Shown here piece after piece: positions 8,084 through 24,382 of a stretch of DNA of 64,000 nucleotides. The position numbers and the translations under genes were made by a program. The stretch's first letter is position 1, and each line of letters starts with the position of its first letter. The notes beneath the pieces are model-generated. The model was not told the DNA's origin. It saw nothing but the letters and a program-made list of their open reading frames with translations, and searched no databases. This stretch comes from an uncultured Candidatus Saccharibacteria bacterium (GTDB lineage: Bacteria; Patescibacteriota; UBA1384; XYA2-FULL-43-10; 1-14-0-10-43-13), in the NCBI GenBank assembly GCA_964419835.1, contig CAYQPT010000003.1, positions 799 to 64,798 on the forward strand, read 5' to 3'.

Positions 8084-8191
8084 CATTTATCAATTACCAG
8101 TTATCAATTTCCATTCATTTATCATTGAAAATCTACGTGACTAAATGATCAATGGAAAATGAGCAATGAGCAATAATTCACGAGGATAGAT

Positions 8192-11100
8192 ATGGACGAC
8201 AATAACATTGACGAAAACGAAATAATTCCTACAGAAGATTCTGAACAATCAAAAGAGGTTGGATCAGAAGAAGTTTCTGAAAATCCGGCGGATGATGCTG
8301 AGATCATCGAAGAAGTATCAGTTTCTCCTGTGGTTGCAGATAGAGATTCAGGGTCTCCTACCAGCGATCTTATGAGAAACAATACTGTAGAAGAAGATAT
8401 GTTTGTTCCGGAGGTCGGTAATCTGGTTCGCCGTGATCTTACAGTTGAGATGGAAACTTCATACCTAGACTATGCCATGAGCGTCATTGTTTCGCGTGCT
8501 CTTCCGGATGTTAGAGATGGTCTAAAGCCGGTTCATAGACGCGTTCTTTACGCTATGCATGCGACAGGGCTTCATCATTCCTCAAAATACCGTAAATCCG
8601 CCAAAGTTGTAGGTGAGGTTATTGGTAACTACCATCCACATGGTGATGTGGCAGCTTATGATACTTTAGTCCGCTTGGCTCAGGATTTCTCAATGCGTTA
8701 TCCCTTGGTTGACGGTCAGGGAAACTTTGGTTCAATGGATGGCGACTCTGCCGCTGCTATGCGATACACAGAATGTCGAATGTCCTCAATTGCTGAAGAA
8801 ATGGTTGCTGATATAGATAAAGATACCGTTGACTGGCAGGATAACTATGATGGCTCAACGCAAGAGCCGATCGTAATGCCGGCCAGAGTGCCGCAGCTTC
8901 TCCTAAACGGTACTATGGGTATTGCCGTTGGTATGGCAACAAACATTCCGCCTCACAATTTAGGAGAACTTTGCAATGGAATCGGTGCCTTGATTGATAA
9001 TCCTGAAGTTACTGTCGAGGACTTAATGGAGCACATTAAGGGTCCGGATTTTCCTACTGGAGGCGTTATTTACAATAATGAAGATATCAAGATGGCCTAT
9101 GCTACTGGTAAGGGCCGTATTATGATGCGGGCAAAGGCAGATATTGAAGAGGGAAAGCGTGGATTCAAGATTGTAATTACAGAGATTCCATATCAGGTTA
9201 ACAAAGCGACTATGATTGAAAAGATTGCCGATCTTGTGAAGGAAAAGAAAATTGACGGCATTTCAGATCTACGGGATGAATCCGACCGTCACGGTGTTCG
9301 GGTTGTAATCGAGCTTAAAGCTAATTCGTATCCGAAGAAAGTTCTAAACCGCCTTTTCGAATTGACCCAGATGCAGACGGCTTTCCATGTTAACATGCTC
9401 GCCTTAACTCCAGATCTTGAACCGGTCGTGATGACATTAAAAGATGTTCTCTCATATTATATTGAACATAGAAAGAATGTTATTGAGCGGCGAAGTCGAT
9501 ATGAACTAAAGAAGGCAAAAGACCGCGCTCACATACTGGAAGGGCTCCGGATCGCGCTTGATAATATAGATGAAGTAATCAACACTATCCGAGCTTCTGC
9601 AAACAGGGATGAAGCTAAAAAGAATTTAATTGCCAAATTTAAACTCTCAGAGCTCCAAGCTGATGCGATTTTAGATATGCGTCTTTCTGCTTTGGCAGCG
9701 TTGGAGCGAAAAAAGATTGAAGATGAATATGACGAAATTATGAAACGGATTGCCTACTTGGAAGATCTTCTGGCGCATCCGGAAAAAATTCTTTCTCTCA
9801 TCAAGACAGACCTAAAAGAAGTTGCTGATAAATATGGTGATGACAGAAGAACAGCCATTGTCCCTGGTGCTCTTGGTAGCTTCAATGCCGAAGATTTAAT
9901 TCCTGACCAGAAAGTGATTGTCGCATTTTCACGAAGCAATTACATTAAGCGTCAAGAGATTGAAACTTACCGAAAGCAGACAAGAGGCGGCTTCGGTGTT
10001 GTTGGCATGACAACAAAAGAAGAAGACATCGTCGATAATTTGGCTTGTGCCAGTACGCATGATGACATATATTTCTTCTCCAACAAAGGCCGCGTCTTTA
10101 AGAGTAAGGTTTACGAATTACCGGCATCTTCTAGGCAATCTAAAGGCACACCTATCGTAAACATTGTTCAAATCTCCCAAGATGAGAAAGTGACTGCAAT
10201 TTTGACCGTGCCGAAGACAAATAAGAGTAAATTCTTCATTATGGGCACTAAGAATGGACAGATTAAAAAGACTGAAATAGAAAAGTATGAAAATATAAGA
10301 AAAACCGGAATAATCGCTGTTGGACTAAAAGGCGATGACGAGCTAAAATGGGTTAAGATGTCAGGCGGTAAAGACATAATTGTTGAGGTTTCAGTAAAAG
10401 GACAGGCAATTTGCTATCCAGAAACAGATGTCCGTCCAATGGGCAGAAGCGCTTCAGGGGTTACTGGAATGCGTCTGCGTAAGTCTGATCAGGTAATGTC
10501 AATGGACATCGTTCCAGGTGAAATGGCCGGATTTGATAAGCCGACGAATTTCCGCGGGCCCGATATGCTGATTGTTCTTGAGAACGGTTTTGGCAAGCGA
10601 ACAATGCTGAGGAATTTTCACCTCCAAAAACGTGGTGGTATGGGTATTCGCGCTGCAAACTGTACACCGAAGACCGGTAATGTAATTGGCATGCATATTA
10701 CGTACACAGACTTGGGTGATGTTATTCTGGCATCTCAAAAGGGACAATTTATTAGAATGGAACTGGCCAAGATTAAGCGCTTAGGAAGAGATACTCAGGG
10801 AGTAACTCTAATGAAACTACGCGCTGACGATAAAGTTTCATCAGTTGCTCTTATCTTGCCTGACGAAGAAGAAGTGGTGCAGAATGAAATTCCTCTAGAT
10901 TTAAACTCCCCTAAAGCCCCAGAAGAGAAGACGGTAAGGGACAACGGATCTGCAAAATTAGAAAAAACAGAGAAGAAAATAGCAATTAAAGAAAAAAATG
11001 TTTCAAATAAGCCCGATAAAAAAGTAATACAAAGTATGACAAAAGATATTCCAACCAAAGACAAAAAGGAAAATGAGACTGAATCTAAATTCAAAGTCAA

Positions 11101-11236
11101 TTATTACGAGCCAAAGAAAGATGAAAAAATGGTTGAAGCATCAGAAGATGACTCTAAAATAGATTTTCATACTAAGAAATTACCCGAAAATCCCCCAATT
11201 ATTAAAGATGACACGAACTACTGGGGCGCGAAATAA
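8192..11236 (+). CDS. gyrA: DNA gyrase subunit A with an acidic N-terminal extension and a lysine-rich C-terminal tail
   Basis: [33 protein letters not shown], the active-site region and C-terminal beta-pinwheel repeats. About 75 extra N-terminal residues and a ~140 aa K/E-rich tail. GAGGA lies 7 nt before the ATG at 8192. Confidence 0.92.
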
Positions 11237-11438
11237 ACATAGAATCAAGTATTTTGAATTACGAATTATGGCAGAGTTACTATTATATTGAATTGATAGC
11301 GCCGAATTAGTGTTATCTATAATTCGGGTTGCTTTTAGAACTATTTTTCAGTATAATAAAAGGCACAGTTATTGATCGCCGAAGTTTAAGCAGCCAGAAA
11401 CACCATTATTCATTATTCCATATTCATAATTCCATCCT

Positions 11439-13337
11439 ATGGCCCGATTCCAAAAAAGAAAATTGAGCAAGAAAGAACAAAAGGCAGTGGACAAAAATGG
11501 CCCACAGCTTACTTTTGAGGAGAGAAAAGCTCAAAAGGAAGCTTCGGCCGAGCCAAAAGCAAAAAAACAAGTCCACATTCCAAATGTAATCTCAGTAAAA
11601 GATTTTGCAGAAATTTCTGGTTTACCTGTAACTCAGGTTATCACTGTTCTGATGAAGAATGGTATTTTGGCAACAATTAATGAAACAATTGACTTTGAAA
11701 CAGCTGCCATCGTTGGAGATGACTTGGGTCTTGAAATCATTCCGTCTGAAGAAGAGGAAGCAGAAGGCAAGCAGATAGAAGAAAAAGTGGAGAATAAAAA
11801 CTTAGTTCATCGTCCGCCAGTTGTTACTATTATGGGCCATGTTGACCACGGAAAGACAACTCTTTTAGACCAGATCCGTTCCGCTCATGTCGCTGAAGGT
11901 GAGTCAGGCGGTATAACTCAACACATTTCCGCGTATCAAGTTACGCTAAAAGACACTAAGAATAAAAACTTAAAGAATAGAACTATTACTTTTATTGACA
12001 CTCCCGGCCATGCTGCTTTTTCGGCCATGCGGGAGCACGGTTCGGCGATCACTGACATTGTTGTCCTAATTATCGCCGTAACTGACGGTGTTATGCCGCA
12101 AACAATTGAGGTAATCAAACAAGCTCAGGGAAATAATGTACCAATCATTGTGGCTATTAATAAAGTTGATGTGCCTGATGCCGATATAATGAAAACCAAA
12201 CAACAGCTCTCCGAATATGATCTTGTGCCAGAGGAGTGGGGCGGAAAAACTGTTATGTCGGAAATATCCGCTAAGACAGGCAAGGGCGTTGATGATCTTT
12301 TGGAGCTTATTCTTTTGCAAGCCGATTTAATGGAGCTAAAAGCTGATCCGAAAGAGGATGCGCTTGGAATTGTCATTGAATCACACATGCAAAAAGGCGC
12401 TGGTGCCATGGCGTTGGCTTTAATTGAAAATGGAACATTACGAAAAGGCGACGCCGTCGCGATTGGCGCTTCGTTCGGCCGAATTAGAATTCTTGAAGAC
12501 ACGCTGGGCAAACCGGTTGAAAGCGCGGGTCCAAGTTTCCCCGTTCTTCTCGCTGGATTGAAGTCACTACCAAACTTTGGCGATCGGCTTTTGGCATTTA
12601 AAAATGAAAAAGCTGCCCGTGAGACAGCTCAGAAATATCAGAGAGCAGATGTTAAGATTAAAATTGCAACTGCCAGAAAATATTCTAAAGAAGGTGCTGC
12701 GGCAGAAAACATTGAAAAAGCTTTTGATTACAACATCATACTAAAGACTGACGTTCATGGCTCGCTTGAAGCAGTTAAAAAACTTCTTTCAGAGATTAAA
12801 TCGCAGGAAGCTCAAATTCAAATCATCTCTGAAGGAGTTGGCGCTATCTCGGAGTCGGATGTTACTTTGGCGAAGGCAACCGGTGCCCATATTATTGGCT
12901 TTAGAGTTAAAGGACTGGACGCTGCCAGAAAGATTGCCGAAAAAGAAAAAGTCACAATCCAATTATTTGAAATCATTTATGAACTGATCGATACAATTAA
13001 AAGAGATATCGGAAAGATGCTTCCGCCCGAAGTTATTGAGGAAGAGTTAGGCAAAGGTGACGTACTCGGCATTTTCCGCGATGACAGAAAAGGTTTTGTA
13101 GCAGGTGGCAAGATTGAAAAAGGCAAGCTCACGGTTGGTGACGAGATTAAAATATTTCAAAATGACAATGAAAAATATAGAGCCAAGATTGTTTCTCTTC
13201 GAAAAGAAAAAAGTGAGGTTAAAGAGTGTGAATCCGGTTCAGAATGTGGCTTTGGTATGCCGGCCGGCGCAAATGTGGCAGTAGGGGACACCTTCGTTGC
13301 TTTCAAAACAATCCACAAAGAACGCGTCATTGAATAG
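11439..13337 (+). CDS. infB: translation initiation factor IF-2 (short form)
   Basis: GTPase motifs [17 protein letters not shown] and NKVD, and IF-2 C-terminal domains. Confidence 0.92.
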
Positions 13338-13452
13338 CATTCGTGGTCTTTATAGTACTAAAAATTTGTGTGCCATTGGCAGACATTTTTATTTTCTAGG
13401 AACTGCTGTACAATATAAGTATTAAATAATGTTCTAAAAAATGGAGGGTGAT

Positions 13453-14781
13453 ATGAAAAAAATTGGAGCAATGCTTTTTATAGGCATTTTTTCGTTGATG
13501 ACTTTTTGGGGGACAGCGAGTGCCGGCCCATCGGTTGACCAAAGCAACACAAAAATTGAAGATGCCTCAGCTTCCCTGTTGATGGATGCGCCTTATTATA
13601 GGGCTCAAACTTTCCGTCCCGACAGGCAGCATATAGATCAGATAGATATCTATTTAAAAGATAGAGCAGAGGGATCATGGGCACAGATTTATCTTTATAA
13701 TGAAACTAATCATCTAGAGATTGCTAATGTAGGTCATAGGATGGCCGCGGGAACTGGTTGGGAGACCTATCCTCTAAATGTTGACGTAACAGTAGGAGCG
13801 AGATACAGAATTAAACTAGTTGTTAATGCTTCAGGTGTTAAATGGCCTTTTACTACCGGGAATGTTTATATTCGGGGATCATTGTACTACGAAGAAAACA
13901 CTTATTATAGTGGAGCTGATTTTATATTTAGGACTTGGGGCACTGATCCCGTTGAGATGGTTGAGGAGCAAATCATTCCAGAGGACGGAACAGATGAGCC
14001 CGGAACGCCCGGAACGCCAGCGTCCATCCCTGGAACTGCTGAAGGGATAACCGTAGTGGCGGAAACTCCGACAGCGACAGTTGCAACATCAATCGCCAAA
14101 CCAACCGAATTAACCGCCGCTTACACCGATAGCGCAAAACTGACATGGAAAGCATCGACTACTACCGATATCACCGGTTACATCGTCTTCCGATCTGAAA
14201 CCAAGGGAAAGGGGTATACAAAGATAGCAGATGTGGCAAAAAATATATTAGAATATACTGACACAACAGCCGCTGCGTCAAAAACCTACTACTATGTTGT
14301 CAGGGCGGTAAAAGGGACAGTGCAGTCTGCCAGTTCCAATGAAGCAACAGTAGTTGTACCAGCGACCGCTCCGCCAATTGCTCCTCAAAATTTAAAAGTA
14401 AATTTGGTCCAAAGTTCATCCATAAATGTAACTTGGGATAAAAATCCAGAAGAAAATATTTCAGGATATACTTGCACCATTTCTCTCGAAGGCAAAGAGG
14501 TGGAAGTAAAAAATATCGGAGCGGATGACAATAATTGTCTTTTCTCTAATCTGATACCTGACGCAGATTACAAAATTGCCGTTATCGCCAAGAATTCATT
14601 GGGAGAATCCTCATCTCCTTCAGAGATAACACAAAAGACCGCTTTAGAAACTGTTGTCCAGAAAGAGCCAATATTGCCTTTGCTTCTCTGGGTGCTCCTA
14701 TCCTTTGCCGCCGCTCTTACAATAGTTCTAATGATAATGATCTGCCGCAGACATAAAAAAGCTAAACAGCAGTCAGTTTAA
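13453..14781 (+). CDS. secreted, C-terminally membrane-anchored protein with two fibronectin type III-like repeats
   Basis: Signal peptide MKKIGAMLFIGIFSLMTFWGTASA. Two FN3-like repeats (LTWKAS...YYYVVRAV and VTWDKNP...YKIAVIAKN). C-terminal TM helix followed by a basic tail. GGAGGGTG SD before the ATG at 13453. Confidence 0.7.
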   Translation: MKKIGAMLFIGIFSLMTFWGTASAGPSVDQSNTKIEDASASLLMDAPYYRAQTFRPDRQHIDQIDIYLKDRAEGSWAQIYLYNETNHLEIANVGHRMAAGTGWETYPLNVDVTVGARYRIKLVVNASGVKWPFTTGNVYIRGSLYYEENTYYSGADFIFRTWGTDPVEMVEEQIIPEDGTDEPGTPGTPASIPGTAEGITVVAETPTATVATSIAKPTELTAAYTDSAKLTWKASTTTDITGYIVFRSETKGKGYTKIADVAKNILEYTDTTAAASKTYYYVVRAVKGTVQSASSNEATVVVPATAPPIAPQNLKVNLVQSSSINVTWDKNPEENISGYTCTISLEGKEVEVKNIGADDNNCLFSNLIPDADYKIAVIAKNSLGESSSPSEITQKTALETVVQKEPILPLLLWVLLSFAAALTIVLMIMICRRHKKAKQQSV

Positions 14782-14795
14782 CTTAAGTTTACAAT

Positions 14796-15887
14796 ATGTC
14801 AGAAAAAATAAATAATATCCTACACAGGTTTTTTGCTTTTGTCGTTCGAAGAAAATTACTCTGCGTCCTACTGGTGGTATTGTGTTGTTCTTTGTTTGCT
14901 GCCAAAGTATCGATTTCGGCGCAAAATATTGGCGCCGGTGAAGCCGTCTCAAAAATATCAAAAGCAATCACCATGGGATCGCTGGCGCCGATTACTGGAC
15001 CGGGGGAGAAGAATGAAAGCAGTGTAGATACTGATAATACAACCGAGAATACCTCATCTTCTACCCCATTGTCAGTAGGGAAGTCAAACAGCACAACCGG
15101 AATCACAAGTTCATCCAACACTTCCTCGACAACACCTCCTAATTCATCTTCTGGATCTTCTGGCTCCAACCCCAGTTCCCCTGCTTTGCCGGTTGACGAA
15201 ACGCCATCAGCAGTTGTGGCTTTTTATGCTGATAACCAGTCGGACACAGACGCCGAGGATGAAAATCACCTGAGAGTTGTTGATTATATCTTAGCAACTG
15301 GTGCTAATCCGGTATTTCACGCTGGTGATTTAATGGAAGACGGGACACAGGATAGTTTAAACCGCTTTAATGCGGTGACAGGAACAATGCGTTCGAGCCG
15401 GTCTTTCTATGCCGCATTGGGTAATAACGACCGCAAATACGGCGACTCTTCCACCCCATCGTCACTGTTTTTGAACAACTTTGTTTTCCCGAACAACGAA
15501 CAATGGTATTCAGTAAATGTTGGCAATCTGCACATGGTCGTTTTGGACAGCGCTTTCTCTAGAAGCAGCACTACTCAGCGTAATTGGCTTATCGCTGATC
15601 TGCAGAGCGCGTCTTCCCAATCAAAAGTAACGGGCGTAATGTATCATCACCCTGATTTTTCAGCAGATATTTCACAGTATCTTACAGATAATGGCGTTGA
15701 TTTCGTTATTTCGGGACACACCCATTCCTATACACATGCGATTTCCGGTGGAGTTCACTATTTTGTGACAAGCGGACAGCCGGGGATAGGGTATCTTTTA
15801 GCAAGAATCTATCAAGATAATGTTTCAATCTCGTACTACAATAGTAGTAATAGCGTAGTTGAAACATTCAATTTTAACGAGAGATAA
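14796..15887 (+). CDS. secreted calcineurin-like metallophosphoesterase with a Ser/Thr-rich linker
   Basis: N-terminal signal anchor, a long S/T/N-rich low-complexity linker, and metallophosphatase motifs (GDLMEDG, GNND, HHP, GHTHSY). Confidence 0.7.
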   Translation: MSEKINNILHRFFAFVVRRKLLCVLLVVLCCSLFAAKVSISAQNIGAGEAVSKISKAITMGSLAPITGPGEKNESSVDTDNTTENTSSSTPLSVGKSNSTTGITSSSNTSSTTPPNSSSGSSGSNPSSPALPVDETPSAVVAFYADNQSDTDAEDENHLRVVDYILATGANPVFHAGDLMEDGTQDSLNRFNAVTGTMRSSRSFYAALGNNDRKYGDSSTPSSLFLNNFVFPNNEQWYSVNVGNLHMVVLDSAFSRSSTTQRNWLIADLQSASSQSKVTGVMYHHPDFSADISQYLTDNGVDFVISGHTHSYTHAISGGVHYFVTSGQPGIGYLLARIYQDNVSISYYNSSNSVVETFNFNER

Positions 15888-15891
15888 TTGT

Positions 15892-16395
15892 TTAAATATT
15901 TCTACTGTCATACGCCCAGTGAAGTACTGCCTGGCGTTGTTTTGGTCTGCAGGACAGATCCTTTGATCGACAGTTTCTTTTTATTTGGGCGATATGGCGA
16001 TTGATTGCTTTCCATCGCTTAATTTGCCGCGCGTCTTCTTTCGGAATTCTTCTCCCCATGTAGTATCGGCAGTACCACTGGAACCATCCGCGCGGGTCCT
16101 CTTCATATATCCAGCCGTTTTTTCTCCAAACAAATAGAGGTTGGCTGGCGTTTACTTTAAAATAGTTTAAATTTGAGTCGTGTTTCTCGGGGCATAATTT
16201 GGCATTATTAAACCAATCTTTGGGAAACTCATCTTTACAATCGGTCATATATTTTCCACCAAACACGCCCAGTTCGAGCATTTCTTTGGGAGTCAAATCG
16301 GGCTTAAATTCCGGATCAAAGTTTCTTCCCATTGGCTCGGAAAGTATATAGGAATAACCCTTCTGCATTTTGTCATTTATAACGACTTTTTTCAT
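15892..16395 (-). CDS. conserved hypothetical cytoplasmic protein (Trp/Cys-rich, GWFQWYCRYYMGRR motif)
   Basis: Intact 167 aa ORF with protein-like composition; I cannot assign a family from memory. Confidence 0.55.
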   Translation of the reverse strand: MKKVVINDKMQKGYSYILSEPMGRNFDPEFKPDLTPKEMLELGVFGGKYMTDCKDEFPKDWFNNAKLCPEKHDSNLNYFKVNASQPLFVWRKNGWIYEEDPRGWFQWYCRYYMGRRIPKEDARQIKRWKAINRHIAQIKRNCRSKDLSCRPKQRQAVLHWAYDSRNI

Positions 16396-16455
16396 TGCAT
16401 ATTACGATTATAGACCAACCAAAAACCTGTGTCATATAGCATTTTAATGCATAAT

Positions 16456-16464
16456 TGTGGATAA
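16456..16464 (+). promoter_or_regulatory. perfect DnaA box (TGTGGATAA, the reverse complement of TTATCCACA)
   Basis: Exact 9-mer match to the DnaA box consensus, in an AT-rich 325 bp intergenic region. Confidence 0.5.
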
Positions 16465-16543
16465 GTACGAACATAAACCGAACATAAGATTATCACAATC
16501 TGATCTTAAAATTAATCATGAGCATAAACATTTTGCGTGACAT

Positions 16544-16552
16544 TGTGGATAA
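16544..16552 (+). promoter_or_regulatory. second perfect DnaA box (TGTGGATAA) in the same orientation, 88 bp from the first
   Basis: Exact 9-mer match; both boxes sit within the extended repeat ATTGTGGATAAG. Confidence 0.5.
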
Positions 16553-16719
16553 GCCAGATACATCGCGAAAAAATAAAAGCAATAGAATATAATTGTTGTA
16601 AAAATAGTTTAAAAATTAACTGTAAGGATAAAAGGAGCGTTGCTTGCTAAATAAGTTTGGCATTTCTATTATTAGATATGGTAAAATGTAATTGAAAACA
16701 ATTCTTTAGGAGGACTAAA

Positions 16720-17034
16720 GTGAAAAAAGGATTTACATTACTGGAATTGCTTATAGTCATTGCTATTATTGGTATTTTGGCCACGATCATTACTTTAAAT
16801 GTGGCTAACGCTAAAGACAGCGCCAAAAAAGCCAAAGCAATTTCCGACCTTGATACAATTGCGAAGATGGAAGAATATTACAAAAGCCAGAATACCACTC
16901 AAAAATATACAATAAGTCGCAGTGAATATTCTTGTGATATTTATCTCCCGGTTGAAGAGTTGTCAACAATTTCCCTCTACAGGAAAACAAATGGTTGGTT
17001 TGGGGTATATCGAAAGAATGCCGACTTATTTTGA
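16720..17034 (+). CDS. type IV pilin / pseudopilin with prepilin N-terminal methylation motif
   Basis: MKKGFTLLELLIVIAIIGILA is a class III signal peptide (G|FTLLE). GTG start with AGGAGG 6 nt upstream. Confidence 0.85.
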   Translation: MKKGFTLLELLIVIAIIGILATIITLNVANAKDSAKKAKAISDLDTIAKMEEYYKSQNTTQKYTISRSEYSCDIYLPVEELSTISLYRKTNGWFGVYRKNADLF

Positions 17035-17434
17035 TAAGGATGGAAACGAGCAAGAGTACGCATATTCAAGTAAAGACGGAAGCTCCTTTATTATCGAAGC
17101 AGCCGATGTAACAAATCAGACGGAATTGCTTCGGGTAACTCCCTCGGGTTTAGTTAAAGAGGGCGCTAATCAGTCAATTACTCAGACAGATGCACTATGC
17201 AGAGCGTTTGATACAAATGGAGATGGTATTTTAAGGTCTGATATAAATGAGTGGAATGCGACACAAGCGACTATGCATGCTTGTCGCGTTTATCCTTTGA
17301 CGGATGAATGCAAAAAGTTTGACATGAATAAAGATGACACAATTGACTCTATAGATGCCATCATGCTCTTTAATTTTATACAAGCTGCTTCTTCCTCCTA
17401 TATTGACACAAACTGCAGTCAACTGGGATACTAA
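17018..17434 (+). CDS. dockerin-like / EF-hand-like calcium-binding repeat protein in the +1 frame overlapping the pilin 3' end; possibly the pilin C-terminal domain separated by a frameshift
   Basis: DTNGDGILRSDINEW and DMNKDDTIDSIDAIMLFNFI resemble dockerin type I Ca-binding repeats. No signal peptide of its own. The ORF opens at 16916, with in-frame starts at GTG 16922, ATG 16991 and ATG 17018. Confidence 0.4.
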   Translation: MPTYFDKDGNEQEYAYSSKDGSSFIIEAADVTNQTELLRVTPSGLVKEGANQSITQTDALCRAFDTNGDGILRSDINEWNATQATMHACRVYPLTDECKKFDMNKDDTIDSIDAIMLFNFIQAASSSYIDTNCSQLGY

Positions 17435-17716
17435 CAGTTTTTCGGGGCAGCAAAAGAGAGAGCCCGTATGCTGCGACTCTCCCGATTAGATCGATCAAAA
17501 GATTGCTCCTCTAAAAAATCGTAATCTGTATCTATATAGTACTCCTGCCACAGACCCTGTCAATGACGGGAGGGATGAGGTATTTTTTAGTATATTTGCA
17601 ATCTCATCTATTAAAATAGAACCTTTTTTTGCGAGGCCGTCTTTATCTTTTTCCTAATTCATGTAATTATACAGTTAGCCCAGCGGGGCAATTCCAACTT
17701 GAAAGGTGGCAATCCA

Positions 17717-19147
17717 ATGTCGAAGAAGTCAAAAGGATTCCCAGTTCTGTTTCAGGCTGGGATGGGATCGAGAGTTTCAAGCTGGGTGATGGCCCGCATA
17801 GTTTCTATGCTGGGTGCACTCGGCGTTGTCTCTTCTGTCGGACTGCGCACAGTCATGATCGAGGAGGTTAGGCGAGGCAACCAAAAGGTGATCGAGATGG
17901 CCAAGAGGTTTCCATTTCCTGGCCATATCGAAGAGTTGCTGGCATTTGCCAAGGGATGCAAGTGGCACAAAAAGCCAGTCCCAATGGACCAGTTCGGTCC
18001 AAAAGGCGAGCTTGCCAAACGGCTGTCTACGATAGCCGCGTTCATTGAAGTGTCCTTGGCAAAAGAGGGGCACAACGGTCTGATCGGGATCAATGTGATG
18101 TGGAAGCTGCCGCTGACGGTGCTGCCGGTGATATACGGCGCAATGCTTGCAGGCGTCAATATCATCATTGCCGGGGCAGGGGTCCCGATGGAGCTACCAG
18201 CTATTGTCGAGGCAATCCGATCCGGTCAAGACCTGGCTTTCAAACTGGGGACGGACGCGGAATTCACTTTGCGGATTGTTCCTGGAACTTCTGAGCTCAT
18301 AAGCTCGCGTGACAGGCCGAAGCTGGCACCGATTTTGTCCAACTTTGTGTTTTGCAGAAAACTCAAGGATGGATGGAAAGAGAAATACGGCGTCGAGCCG
18401 GATTTCTTCATTCTTGAGGACTACAAGGCAGGCGGCCACAATGCTCCACCTCGTAACAAGGAAGTGCATTCCGTTGAGAAAGACGGGATCGACAGCTACT
18501 TCGACGAAGTCGTAGAGCTGGGAATTCCGGTGGTCGTCGCAGGCGCATTTGAGCACGGCGGAACACGGGCAGATCTGCTTTACTGGCAGAAGAGGGGCGC
18601 TCATGGGATCCAGGTCGGATCCCGGTTTGCTCTTTCTTCTGATTCAGGAATGCTCGAGATCTACCGTCATCAGATCCTTGAGCTCAACAAAGCAGGCAAG
18701 CTGGAGATAATAACCCGCATGTCGGACTCACCAACGGGTTATCCGATCAAGATGGCGGTCCTTCAAGGTACTCTAGCCGATCCCGAGATCTACCGTGCAC
18801 GCAGGCGTGCTTGCAAACAAGGGTACCTTCGTGAGGTGCACACCTATACTGACGAGTCTGGCCAGGAGGTCCAAGTACTGTCTTGTAAGGCCATGCCTCT
18901 TGATCAGTATATGGCCCTAAATCCAGACAAGACCAGAGAGCAGTGCGAGGAGGACTCTGACGGTAAGGTCTGTCTGTGCGACGGACTCTTGGGTGCGATT
19001 GGGTTCAAGGCCGTACCAGCGTACATAACGTTGGGCGAAAGTGGGAGGATACCAACTGAGGAAGAGTCTGCCCGGGAGATTGCCCTAGAGATTCTGACTC
19101 CGAGGGACGACGAGGATACAGGGATTGACCTACGACTTGCCGCCTAA
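17717..19147 (+). CDS. FMN-dependent nitronate monooxygenase / FabK-like oxidoreductase (COG2070 family) with a Cys-rich C-terminal extension; GC-rich, probably horizontally acquired
   Basis: FQAGMG...LGALGVVSS, GAGVP and LEDYKAGGHNAP resemble NMO/2-nitropropane dioxygenase motifs. About 55% GC against about 38% in the flanks. An SD-like AAAGGTGG precedes the ATG at 17717. Confidence 0.55.
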   Translation: MSKKSKGFPVLFQAGMGSRVSSWVMARIVSMLGALGVVSSVGLRTVMIEEVRRGNQKVIEMAKRFPFPGHIEELLAFAKGCKWHKKPVPMDQFGPKGELAKRLSTIAAFIEVSLAKEGHNGLIGINVMWKLPLTVLPVIYGAMLAGVNIIIAGAGVPMELPAIVEAIRSGQDLAFKLGTDAEFTLRIVPGTSELISSRDRPKLAPILSNFVFCRKLKDGWKEKYGVEPDFFILEDYKAGGHNAPPRNKEVHSVEKDGIDSYFDEVVELGIPVVVAGAFEHGGTRADLLYWQKRGAHGIQVGSRFALSSDSGMLEIYRHQILELNKAGKLEIITRMSDSPTGYPIKMAVLQGTLADPEIYRARRRACKQGYLREVHTYTDESGQEVQVLSCKAMPLDQYMALNPDKTREQCEEDSDGKVCLCDGLLGAIGFKAVPAYITLGESGRIPTEEESAREIALEILTPRDDEDTGIDLRLAA

Positions 19148-19556: not shown

Positions 19557-19718
19557 TCAATCTCCTTTTATTACTTGCCGAAAGAGTAGCAGAGTGCTTT
19601 CTTGGATTCATTGGGTGAGATAACAAAAATACTTCAACTTCAAAATATATCATTTGATGTTGAGAAAAAAATAATTTTAGTTTATCTTGTAGATGAATTA
19701 CTAAAAGAAAGGTTAATT

Positions 19719-20192
19719 ATGAATTTTATGTTTAGAAGAACTTTTTGGGGAATTTTAATTGTGCTAATTGGGGTGCTTTACATTATAAATAATATCTTTG
19801 GGACTAATATTCCGGTCTGGAACATTTTCTGGCCTTTTGTAATTATTATGGTCGGAATTAGTTTGCTTTATGGCCACCGCGGTATTAAAACCGAGAGTCA
19901 GATAATTTTTGATGAGGGCGATTTGGAAATTTCTTCGGAAAACCGTGATTACAGCACGGTTTTCGGTAGCAGTACATATGACTTTCGTAAGATCAAGCTA
20001 AACAAAAAAACCATAAATATTGAAGCCAGTACCGTATTTGGCGCAACCAAAATTCTAATAGATGAGAAAATACCGATGCGGATAAAAGCAAGCAGCGCTT
20101 TCGGTGGAGTCAAGCTTCCTGATGGCAGCACAGTGGCATTTAGCGAAAGAGAGTACTTTACAAAATCTTATAAAAAAATACTCCGCATGTAA
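19719..20192 (+). CDS. LiaF-like (DUF2154-like) membrane protein with a C-terminal beta-repeat domain; the C-terminus is probably truncated by a frameshift in an A7 run
   Basis: Two N-terminal TM helices and repeated I-N-I-x-A-S-x-V-F-G motifs. A +2-frame continuation directly after the stop encodes VNVNVSAVFGGTEIIS, matching the internal repeats. SD AAAGAAAGG lies before the ATG at 19719. Confidence 0.5.
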   Translation: MNFMFRRTFWGILIVLIGVLYIINNIFGTNIPVWNIFWPFVIIMVGISLLYGHRGIKTESQIIFDEGDLEISSENRDYSTVFGSSTYDFRKIKLNKKTINIEASTVFGATKILIDEKIPMRIKASSAFGGVKLPDGSTVAFSEREYFTKSYKKILRM

Positions 20193-24372: not shown

Positions 24373-24382
24373 GAATATTATT

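What the first reader, a model, noticed from the sequence alone, without database searches (positions are those of the whole stretch)
16720..17434. Type IV pilin followed out of frame by a dockerin/EF-hand-like Ca-binding domain: possible frameshifted pilin-adhesin fusion
The pilin ORF ends at 17034. A +1 frame ORF, open from 16916 to 17434, encodes two dockerin-like Ca-binding repeats (DTNGDGILRSDINEW and DMNKDDTIDSIDAIMLF). It has no signal peptide of its own and a junk-like N-terminal overlap. One reading is a single pilin with a C-terminal calcium-binding or cohesin-docking domain, split by a frameshift that is either real (pseudogene or programmed) or a sequencing error. The other reading is a cytoplasmic dockerin-like protein, which would be odd. 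Pilins with C-terminal adhesive modules could matter for the host attachment expected of an episymbiont.
Basis: partly seen in the sequence, partly recalled or inferred. Interest (0 to 1): 0.55.

Follow-up and report, generated by a model that had tools for sequence, protein, structure and literature searches.

The report
Frameshift-split pilin with dockerin-like tail
A gene for a two-part pilus subunit (a type IV pilin carrying a small calcium-binding, dockerin-like end module) in an uncultured Patescibacteria genome from a biogas digester is cut in two by a one-base frameshift. It is most likely a recently broken accessory gene of a known architectural type.

Summary
ORF1 (16720-17034) is a genuine prepilin: AGGAGG ribosome-binding site, MKKG|FTLLE, N_methyl E=3e-8. 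A +1-frame ORF, open 16916-17434, encodes two Ca-loop repeats.

The single-gene reading is the best supported:
- 117 related pilins are all 130 aa or longer; ORF1 is 104 aa.
- Their conserved head motif (YL..[IL]P ... Y.Y ... G..Y.L.A.LE) is encoded only in frame 2, starting at 17006, which is upstream of ORF1's stop.
- An MSA-based AlphaFold model of the repaired protein puts every beta-strand of the pilin head in the frame-2 part (pLDDT 77-84).
- A codon-periodicity model switches frame near 16970-17005.

The frame break is identical in read sets from two further sequencing runs, so it is unlikely to be an assembly error.

The C-terminal module is only borderline dockerin: Pfam 22.3-23.8 bits against a cut-off of 22.9, and best PDB hit 1OHZ_B at E=0.01. 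It has no orthologue in 1.8 billion representative proteins.

The gene lies in a 4.1-kb accessory block that is missing from the closest relative found. A pilin + dockerin-repeat architecture is already catalogued (Raynaud 2021, Dataset S1).

Verdict: a probably recently inactivated bimodular pilin, of modest interest. Programmed +1 recoding is not excluded but has no support.

The parts
13337..17448 (.). 4.1-kb accessory block absent from the closest relative found (L084). It holds an fn3 protein, a secreted metallophosphoesterase, a 167-aa gene on the minus strand, and the split pilin.
   Evidence: blastn of L084 against the window: L084 5997-11135 matches window 8183-13336, and L084 11216-11313 matches window 17449-17546. 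Gene content. No flanking repeats.
16708..16713 (+). Shine-Dalgarno AGGAGG, 6 nt before the GTG start of the pilin
   Evidence: Sequence. Duplex energy -10.2 kcal/mol, among the strongest in the window.
16720..17034 (+). ORF1 (104 aa): class III signal peptide MKKG|FTLLE, the alpha-1 helix, and the variable alpha-beta loop of a type IV pilin. Its last ~9 codons (17005-17031) are probably read out of the ancestral frame.
   Evidence: N_methyl E=3.2e-8; TIGR02532; GspG N-terminal match. AF2 helix 7-57 with pLDDT 86-97.
16970..17005 (+). Zone where the reading frame changes (one extra base). The G4 run at 17002-17005 and the T3 run at 16999-17001 are the most plausible sites.
   Evidence: Change-point likelihood of the Markov model peaks at 16970-16995, with the G-run 2.5-4.3 nats lower. 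The conserved frame-2 motif starts at 17006. Junctions at or before 17019 score about 3.7 bits more against the pilin HMM than a junction at the stop codon.
16981..16993 (+). AGGA (16981-16984) plus ATG (16991-16993): the start used by gene callers for the 147-aa ORF2 (P0001). A possible independent or re-initiation start.
   Evidence: SD duplex -4.3 kcal/mol, about equal to the window median of -4.2.
17006..17023 (+). Frame-2 codons YIERMP, matching the conserved pilin motif Y-[LI]-x-x-[IL]-P
   Evidence: Column statistics of alignment A2: Y 53/95, L/I 72/96, I/L 64/107, P 91/101.
17024..17161 (+). Frame-2 region encoding the whole predicted beta-sheet of the pilin head, including EYAYSSKDGSSFIIEAADV
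   Evidence: AF2 with a 118-sequence MSA gives strands 102-104, 110-112, 114-118, 122-128, 136-140 and 143-147 at pLDDT 77-84. Motif columns Y115 (86/106), F123 aromatic (99/117) and A127. HMM gain with shuffle controls.
17029..17034 (+). TTT TGA inside A-TTTT-GA: a formally possible +1 slip site at the ORF1 stop. Considered and disfavoured.
   Evidence: Sequence. Disfavoured. No downstream RNA structure.
17189..17383 (+). C-terminal dockerin/EF-hand-like module: Ca loop 1 DTNGDGILRSDI (17210-17245), a 25-residue linker, and Ca loop 2 DMNKDDTIDSID (17321-17356) followed by the helix AIMLFNFIQ. The repeat region (17189-17383) holds three Cys; a fourth lies in the tail at 17414-17416.
   Evidence: PF00404 22.3-23.8 bits against a cut-off of 22.9. 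phmmer against the PDB: best hit 1OHZ_B type I dockerin, E=0.01, spanning both loops. The only non-self hits in 1.84 bn representatives are multi-dockerin and EF-hand proteins.
17432..17434 (+). TAA stop of the frame-2 ORF

Best explanation
One ancestral gene encoded a bimodular type IV pilin. It had a class III signal peptide and alpha-1 helix, a variable loop, a small beta-sheet head, and then a ~75-residue C-terminal module with two Ca-binding loops of the dockerin/EF-hand type.

In this strain the gene carries one extra base. It most likely lies in the stretch TGGTTTGGGG (16996-17005), within a zone 16970-17005. From there the head and the C-terminal module sit in the +1 frame.

Shown:
- ORF1 is a prepilin.
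- The conserved head motifs and the predicted strands are in frame 2.
- The frame break is present in separate read sets from two other runs.
- The locus lies in an accessory block.

Inferred:
- Ordinary translation gives a 104-aa truncated prepilin (helix plus loop, no head).
- At best, ORF2 also yields a leaderless 147-aa fragment that cannot be exported.
- The gene is therefore a recent pseudogene, because the downstream frame is still clean and codon-biased.
- The intact protein would have been a minor pilin displaying a Ca-dependent protein-docking module on the pilus, plausibly for attachment.
For: - Prepilin signature.
- All 117 related pilins are 130-217 aa, median 153, with none at or below 110 aa. 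Each has at least 46 residues beyond the column where ORF1 leaves the family pattern.
- Frame-2 residues Y96, I97, M100, P101, Y113, Y115, G120, F123, I125, A127 and V130 fall on the family's conserved columns.
- Adding the frame-2 part raises the pilin-HMM score from 98-99 to 111 bits. None of 300 or 500 shuffles reached that value.
- With an HMM built only from 85 homologues that match the query N-terminally, 7 of 500 shuffles reached the observed score.
- The AF2 model built on the MSA places all six strands in residues 102-147 at pLDDT 77-84. The frame-1-encoded residues 70-91 stay below 50.
- The Markov coding model prefers frame 1 up to about 16985 and frame 2 from about 17000.
- The DNA across the junction is identical in Logan assemblies of SRR10769903 and SRR10769896, which differ from the window elsewhere by an A7/A8 indel and one SNP.
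- The C-terminal module has four Cys and resembles dockerin, which fits an exported protein rather than a cytoplasmic one.
- The architecture IPR012902 + 2x IPR002105 (pilin + dockerin repeats) is listed for 2 proteins in Dataset S1 of PMC8179133.
Against: - No intact orthologue or allele exists to show the fused state. The word-index search found only self. The exhaustive phmmer found only self plus repeat proteins. JGI metagenomes gave none.
- The selection-unbiased HMM test is only moderate: 7 of 500 shuffles for the fusion and 32 of 500 for ORF2 alone.
- Pfam's curated pilin-head model (T2SSG) does not hit the repaired protein, and Foldseek against the PDB found nothing significant.
- ORF2 has an average-strength SD plus ATG.
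- ComGC-type pilins of about 100 aa exist (own knowledge), so 104 aa is not impossible for a functional pilin.
- Reads were not inspected.
Confidence: 0.6

Rival explanations
1. Two separate functional genes: a short ComGC-sized pilin (104 aa) and, overlapping it by 44 nt, an independently translated leaderless 147-aa Ca-binding protein that acts in the cytoplasm.
For: - ATG 16991 has AGGA at 6-nt spacing with a duplex energy equal to the window median.
- Gene callers annotate both ORFs.
- ORF2 has a strong coding signal.
- ORF1's tail has a hairpin-like pattern (ISLYRK-TNG-WFGVYRK), and the single-sequence AF2 run drew strands there at very low confidence.
Against: - ORF2 begins in the middle of the conserved pilin-head motif, and its first ~55 residues are predicted to form the pilin beta-sheet.
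- All 117 homologous pilins are 130 aa or longer.
- A 44-nt overlap is unusually long.
- A module with four Cys and dockerin-like repeats is typical of exported proteins.
- No homologue of such a stand-alone protein exists in 1.84 bn representatives.
Confidence: 0.12
2. Programmed or regulated recoding: the fusion protein is made by +1 ribosomal frameshifting. This could occur by tRNA-Gly re-pairing on G-GGG at 17002-17005, or by tRNA-Phe re-pairing on U-UUU with UGA in the A site at 17029-17034, as in prfB. The result would be mostly a short pilin and a little adhesin-bearing pilin.
For: - Both sites allow perfect +1 re-pairing.
- The required shift is +1.
- The downstream frame is intact and codon-biased.
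- The break is the same in the assemblies of three sequencing runs.
Against: - There is no SD-like stimulator upstream of either site.
- There is no downstream RNA structure (z = -0.49).
- The A-site codon at the G-run is an ordinary GUA.
- The stop-codon site would skip the conserved YIERMP motif and is disfavoured by 3.7 bits and 3-4 nats.
- Runs of 4 nt are too short for transcriptional slippage or phase variation.
- Conservation cannot be tested because no orthologues exist.
Confidence: 0.08
3. Sequencing or assembly artefact: the real gene is intact, and a one-base error or a minority allele was fixed in the consensus.
For: - The break maps to a region with short homopolymers (T3, G4, A4).
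- The window's own assembly differs from two others by an A7/A8 homopolymer length at 20165-20171, so indel-type differences do occur in these data.
Against: - The junction sequence is identical in Logan assemblies of three runs from at least two projects.
- No intact version is present among 15 bn proteins for 10 candidate repairs.
- Indel errors at 3-4-nt runs are rare in short-read data (own knowledge).
Confidence: 0.08

Closest known systems
Modular (bimodular) type IV pilins, e.g. Streptococcus sanguinis PilB (pilin + vWA) and PilC (pilin + lectin); Raynaud et al. 2021, PMC8179133
   Same: An N-terminal small pilin module followed, after a short linker, by a grafted C-terminal functional module. 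The paper reports more than 1,200 such proteins in 264 architectures, many of them in candidate-phyla bacteria.
   Different: The module here is a ~75-aa dockerin/EF-hand-like Ca-binding pair rather than vWA or lectin. The gene is split by a frameshift. No function was tested.
InterPro architecture IPR012902 - IPR002105 - IPR002105 (prepilin motif + two dockerin type I repeats), 2 proteins in Dataset S1 of PMC8179133
   Same: The same domain order as the repaired protein.
   Different: Those proteins were not retrieved, so homology is untested. No homologue of this C-terminal module was found by exhaustive search. Here only repeat 2 reaches the Pfam model.
Type I dockerin of Clostridium thermocellum Xyn10B/XynY (PDB 1OHZ chain B)
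   Same: Two Ca-loop-plus-helix segments at a similar spacing, located at the C-terminus. It is the best PDB sequence match and covers both loops.
   Different: E is only 0.01. In loop 1 the acidic residue is at position 11 instead of 12. There are four Cys. No cohesin partner is known. Calpain and EF-hand proteins match loop 1 about as well.
prfB (RF2) +1 programmed frameshift, CUU UGA C
   Same: The +1 direction, and a slippery codon followed by UGA at the end of ORF1 (UUU UGA U).
   Different: There is no SD-like stimulator, and no conservation can be tested. Motif and coding evidence place the frame change about 25-60 nt upstream of the stop.
Type IV pili of Saccharibacteria used for host binding and twitching (PMC9894109, PMC11623550)
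   Same: A Patescibacteria lineage and the pilin family. This is the rationale for expecting pilus-mediated attachment.
   Different: Those pilins are intact and experimentally tied to function. No pilus machinery is in this window, and this gene is broken.

Membership tests
Type IV pilin (class III signal peptide proteins) | Short basic leader ending in Gly, then F(+1) and E(+5), followed by a ~20-residue hydrophobic stretch | tested here: met
   MKKG|FTLLELLIVIAIIGILATII. PF07963 33.3 bits (cut-off 21.2); TIGR02532 37.2 bits (cut-off 16.3).
Type IV pilin (class III signal peptide proteins) | Long N-terminal alpha-1 helix packed against a C-terminal antiparallel beta-sheet head, in one polypeptide | tested here: not met
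   The helix (residues 7-57) is in ORF1, but all predicted strands (102-147) are encoded in the +1 frame. The feature is met only after removing one base. Foldseek confirmation of the fold failed.
Type IV pilin (class III signal peptide proteins) | Prepilin peptidase and assembly ATPase/platform present in the genome | not testable with these tools
   None were found in the parts of the 64-kb window that were scanned. The rest of the genome is not available.
Dockerin type I (PF00404) | Score at or above the Pfam gathering cut-off (22.9 bits) | tested here: inconclusive
   22.6 bits (ORF2), 23.8 bits (trimmed ORF2), 22.3 bits (repaired protein). Only profile positions 2-23 of 57 align, i.e. repeat 2.
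Dockerin type I (PF00404) | Two duplicated ~22-residue segments, each a 12-residue Ca loop (D1, N/D3, D5, D12) plus a helix | tested here: inconclusive
   Loop 2, DMNKDDTIDSID, is canonical. Loop 1, DTNGDGILRSDI, has the last Asp at position 11. The 1OHZ_B alignment spans both loops at E=0.01. AF2 confidence for the module is below 50.
Dockerin type I (PF00404) | Ca-dependent binding to a cohesin partner | not testable with these tools
   No cohesin domain appeared among the window proteins scanned. Binding needs an experiment.
Modular pilins (Raynaud et al. 2021) | [quoted passage not shown] | tested here: inconclusive
   Both modules are present and adjacent, but in two reading frames.
Programmed +1 ribosomal frameshift (prfB type) | Slippery P-site codon with a stop or slow codon in the A site | tested here: met
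   UUU UGA at 17029-17034, with a T4 run allowing re-pairing.
Programmed +1 ribosomal frameshift (prfB type) | Stimulatory element (an upstream SD-like sequence or downstream structure) and a product that preserves the protein's conserved sequence | tested here: not met
   No SD-like sequence upstream. The downstream fold has z = -0.49. A product from this site lacks the conserved YIERMP motif and scores 3.7 bits lower.
Programmed +1 ribosomal frameshift (prfB type) | Conservation of the shift site among orthologues | not testable with these tools
   No orthologues exist in any collection searched.

The most novel reading that the evidence does not exclude
The split may be functional. A Patescibacteria episymbiont living among cellulosome-bearing anaerobes in a biogas digester would make mostly a headless short pilin. 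By +1 frameshifting at the G-GGG or U-UUU-UGA site, it would also make a small amount of full-length pilin that displays a dockerin-like module on its pili. The cell would then plug into cohesin-type receptors on a host cell, with recoding setting the adhesin dose.
Probability: 0.07. Interest if true: 0.7.

Novelty: new member of a known kind. Interest (0 to 1): 0.3.

Why it matters
If the repaired reading is right, the cohesin-dockerin style of Ca-dependent protein docking has been grafted onto a type IV pilin in an ultrasmall, probably episymbiotic bacterium from an anaerobic digester. That suggests one concrete way such cells could choose and hold partners.

In this genome the gene is broken, has no orthologues, and sits in an accessory block. 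Its practical value is therefore limited:
- as an annotation correction: two hypothetical ORFs are really one disrupted modular pilin;
- as one more example of turnover of surface-protein genes in these lineages.

Tried and rejected
- Single-sequence AlphaFold of the repaired protein gave mean pLDDT 37.6 and was unusable.
- Pfam on the repaired protein gave no T2SSG or other pilin-head family.
- NCBIfam gave nothing for ORF2.
- Orthologue searches for an intact gene all failed:
  - word-index search with ORF2 and with a fusion;
  - exhaustive phmmer;
  - JGI metagenome scan;
  - GTDB genomes through the neighbouring CdaA, where the best hit was a 56%-identical Saccharibacteria MAG cut at the contig end;
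  - exact look-up of 10 one-base-deletion repairs.
- RNA structure downstream of the candidate slip sites is not different from shuffles.
- There are no flanking direct or inverted repeats that would mark the 4.1-kb block as a mobile element.
- Chance ORF for ORF2 is rejected by the coding-signal model.
- Stop-codon readthrough or UGA recoding is rejected: frame 1 has tandem TGA TAA and many further stops.
- My first pilin HMM was biased because some homologues had been selected with the fusion as query. I repeated the test with N-terminal-only matches, and the support dropped from 0/500 to 7/500 shuffles.

Full report
**What is there**

On the + strand, an ORF runs from GTG 16720 to TGA 17032-17034 (104 aa). 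It has an AGGAGG Shine-Dalgarno sequence 6 nt upstream. It begins MKKG|FTLLELLIVIAIIGILA and matches the prepilin N-terminal methylation motif (PF07963 33.3 bits, E=3.2e-8; TIGR02532 37.2 bits).

The +1 frame is open from 16916 to TAA 17432-17434. Public annotations call a 147-aa protein from ATG 16991 (P0001). This frame encodes DTNGDGILRSDI (17210-17245) and DMNKDDTIDSID (17321-17356).

No other prepilin motif occurs in the 64-kb window. No pilus machinery was seen among the window ORFs scanned.

**Is ORF2 coding, and is it the rest of the pilin?**

I trained a 3-periodic order-2 Markov model on 46 long ORFs of the window.
- It prefers the pilin frame up to about 16985.
- It prefers the +1 frame by 2.4-23 nats per 60 nt in every window centred from 17015 to 17375.
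- The maximum-likelihood change-point is 16970-16995. The G4 run (17002-17005) lies 2.5-4.3 nats lower, and the stop-codon site 3.2-3.9 nats lower.

A search with a conceptual fusion returned 130-217-aa pilins of candidate-phyla type. Several aligned across the junction. In the alignment of 117 of them (A2):
- None is shorter than 130 aa, and the median is 153.
- All have at least 46 residues beyond the junction column.
- The family's conserved head columns coincide with frame-2 residues: Y96 (Y 53/95), I97 (L/I 72/96), M100 (I/L 64/107), P101 (P 91/101), Y113, Y115 (Y 86/106), G120, F123 (Y/W 99/117), A127 and V130.

YIERMP is encoded at 17006-17023, upstream of the ORF1 stop. The frame change must therefore lie at or before 17005.

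An HMM of these pilins scores ORF1 at 99.4 bits and the repaired protein at 111.0 bits. None of 300 or 500 shuffles of the frame-2 part reached that value. Part of that set had been selected with the fusion as query, so I rebuilt the HMM from the 85 homologues whose match to the query ends by residue 75. The effect shrinks but persists: 97.2 against 92.9 bits, with 7 of 500 shuffles at least as high. ORF2 alone gave 32 of 500.

AlphaFold2 with the 118-sequence alignment gave the following:
- the alpha-1 helix at residues 7-57 (pLDDT 86-97);
- a poorly defined loop at 70-91 (below 50);
- six strands at 102-147 with pLDDT 77-84, so the whole beta-sheet head is encoded in the +1 frame.

Foldseek did not confirm the fold. 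Pfam's T2SSG model does not hit.

**Where and what kind of break**

Going from ORF1 to ORF2 needs one base removed. Junctions at or before 17019 score about 3.7 bits better against the pilin HMM than a junction at the stop. Homologue columns fit the frame-1 residues TNG (16987-16995) and the frame-2 YI (from 17006). The extra base is therefore most likely within TGGTTTGGGG (16996-17005), but the resolution is low.

A prfB-like slip at U-UUU-UGA (17029-17034) is formally possible. However, it would drop the conserved motif, it has no SD-like stimulator, and the downstream RNA does not fold better than shuffles (z = -0.49). Runs of 3-4 nt are too short for phase variation or transcriptional slippage (own knowledge).

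**Artefact?**

Three Logan assemblies carry the same two ORFs.
- L002 (SRR8925824, a full-scale biogas plant; PMC7842101) is identical to the window.
- L001 and L003 (SRR10769903 and SRR10769896) are identical across the junction.
- L001 and L003 differ from the window elsewhere only by A8 versus A7 at 20165-20171. L001 also has one SNP at 24380.

Independent read sets therefore support the extra base. Only read pile-ups can exclude a minority intact allele. Ten candidate one-base repairs are absent from a 15-billion-protein collection.

**The C-terminal module**

- PF00404 Dockerin_1 scores 22.3-23.8 bits around its 22.9-bit cut-off, on repeat 2 only. EF-hand models touch repeat 1 weakly.
- Exhaustive phmmer of ORF2 against 1.84 billion representatives finds only itself plus five weak hits (E 3e-5 to 1e-3). 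All five are tandem-dockerin or EF-hand repeat proteins.
- The best of these, P0002, aligns over both loops and shares a Cys two to three residues before each loop.
- The best solved structure is the C. thermocellum Xyn10B type I dockerin 1OHZ_B (E=0.01, both loops).
- Loop 1 is one residue off the canonical pattern.

I call it dockerin/EF-hand-like but not a proven dockerin. Its four Cys fit an exported protein.

**Context**

The EF-Tu of the window clusters at 90% identity or more with a protein named 'Patescibacteria group bacterium'. The best CdaA relative in GTDB is a Saccharibacteria MAG at 56% identity.

A related genome fragment, L084 (gyrA at least 90% aa identity; 77-79% nt identity), is collinear through gyrB-gyrA-IF2. 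It then jumps directly to window 17449. So 13337-17448 is a 4.1-kb accessory block absent from that relative. The block holds the fn3 protein, the Ser/Thr-rich secreted metallophosphoesterase, a 167-aa gene and the split pilin. It has no flanking repeats. The pilin is thus part of a variable surface-protein region, which fits an orphan gene subject to rapid gain and loss.

**Mechanism and comparison**

Most likely (0.6), this is a recently inactivated bimodular pilin.
- The cell can still make and process a 104-aa headless prepilin.
- The head plus Ca-binding module can at best be made as a leaderless fragment from AGGA-ATG 16991, whose SD strength equals the window median.

Modular pilins are well established: S. 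sanguinis PilB and PilC are examples, and there are more than 1,200 proteins in 264 architectures. Dataset S1 of that paper lists pilin + two dockerin repeats for two proteins (PMC8179133). Type IV pili mediate host binding in cultivated Saccharibacteria (PMC9894109, PMC11623550).

This is therefore a new, broken and sequence-orphan member of a known kind.

The rivals are two independent genes (0.12), programmed +1 recoding (0.08) and an assembly artefact (0.08).

Noticed in passing
window 17447-17565, minus strand (also L084 11216-11335): A ~100-bp stretch just downstream of ORF2 is more conserved with the relative L084 (82.7% nt) than the flanking genes are (77-79%). On the minus strand it has a promoter-like TTGACA-16-TACTAT (17563-17536) and a GAGGAG. 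It then has two hairpins, the second a terminator-like 9-bp stem followed by UUUUG (17480-17449). It may be a small RNA, or the start of a 40-aa ORF (17498-17376) whose first residues change conservatively in L084. There is no Rfam match.
   Followed up: partly
window 20165-20171 (LiaF-like gene 19602-20192): The window and L002 have A7 where L001 and L003 have A8. The LiaF-like protein is 196 aa here and 212 aa in the other two runs. This is a second frame-changing homopolymer difference within 3 kb of the pilin.
   Followed up: partly
window 17699-19147: The NMO-family (nitronate monooxygenase-like) gene has GC 0.51-0.55 against about 0.40 around it. In the relative L084 an RRM_1 gene occupies its place. 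It is probably a horizontally acquired insert.
   Followed up: partly
window 13441-15887: Two probable surface or secreted proteins lie in the same accessory block as the pilin. One is a 446-aa fn3-domain protein. The other is a 363-aa calcineurin-like phosphoesterase with an N-terminal hydrophobic segment and a long Ser/Thr-rich linker.
   Followed up: no
window 15892-16395, minus strand: A 167-aa ORF is transcribed divergently from the pilin. It has clear protein-like sequence but no Pfam family at E<=0.001.
   Followed up: no
tool behaviour: The word-index protein search with the 237-aa fusion did not list P0126, the 104-aa pilin itself. That protein is 100% identical to the query's first 104 residues and is in the collection. 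Negative results from that search are therefore not exhaustive.
   Followed up: no
P0002 (350 aa) compared with window 17189-17383: A tandem-dockerin protein has a conserved Cys 2-3 residues before every Ca loop (CLKGDVNGDG / CTADMNNDG). This mirrors CRAFDTNGDG / CKKFDMNKDD here. It may mark a disulfide-stapled dockerin-like subfamily.
   Followed up: no
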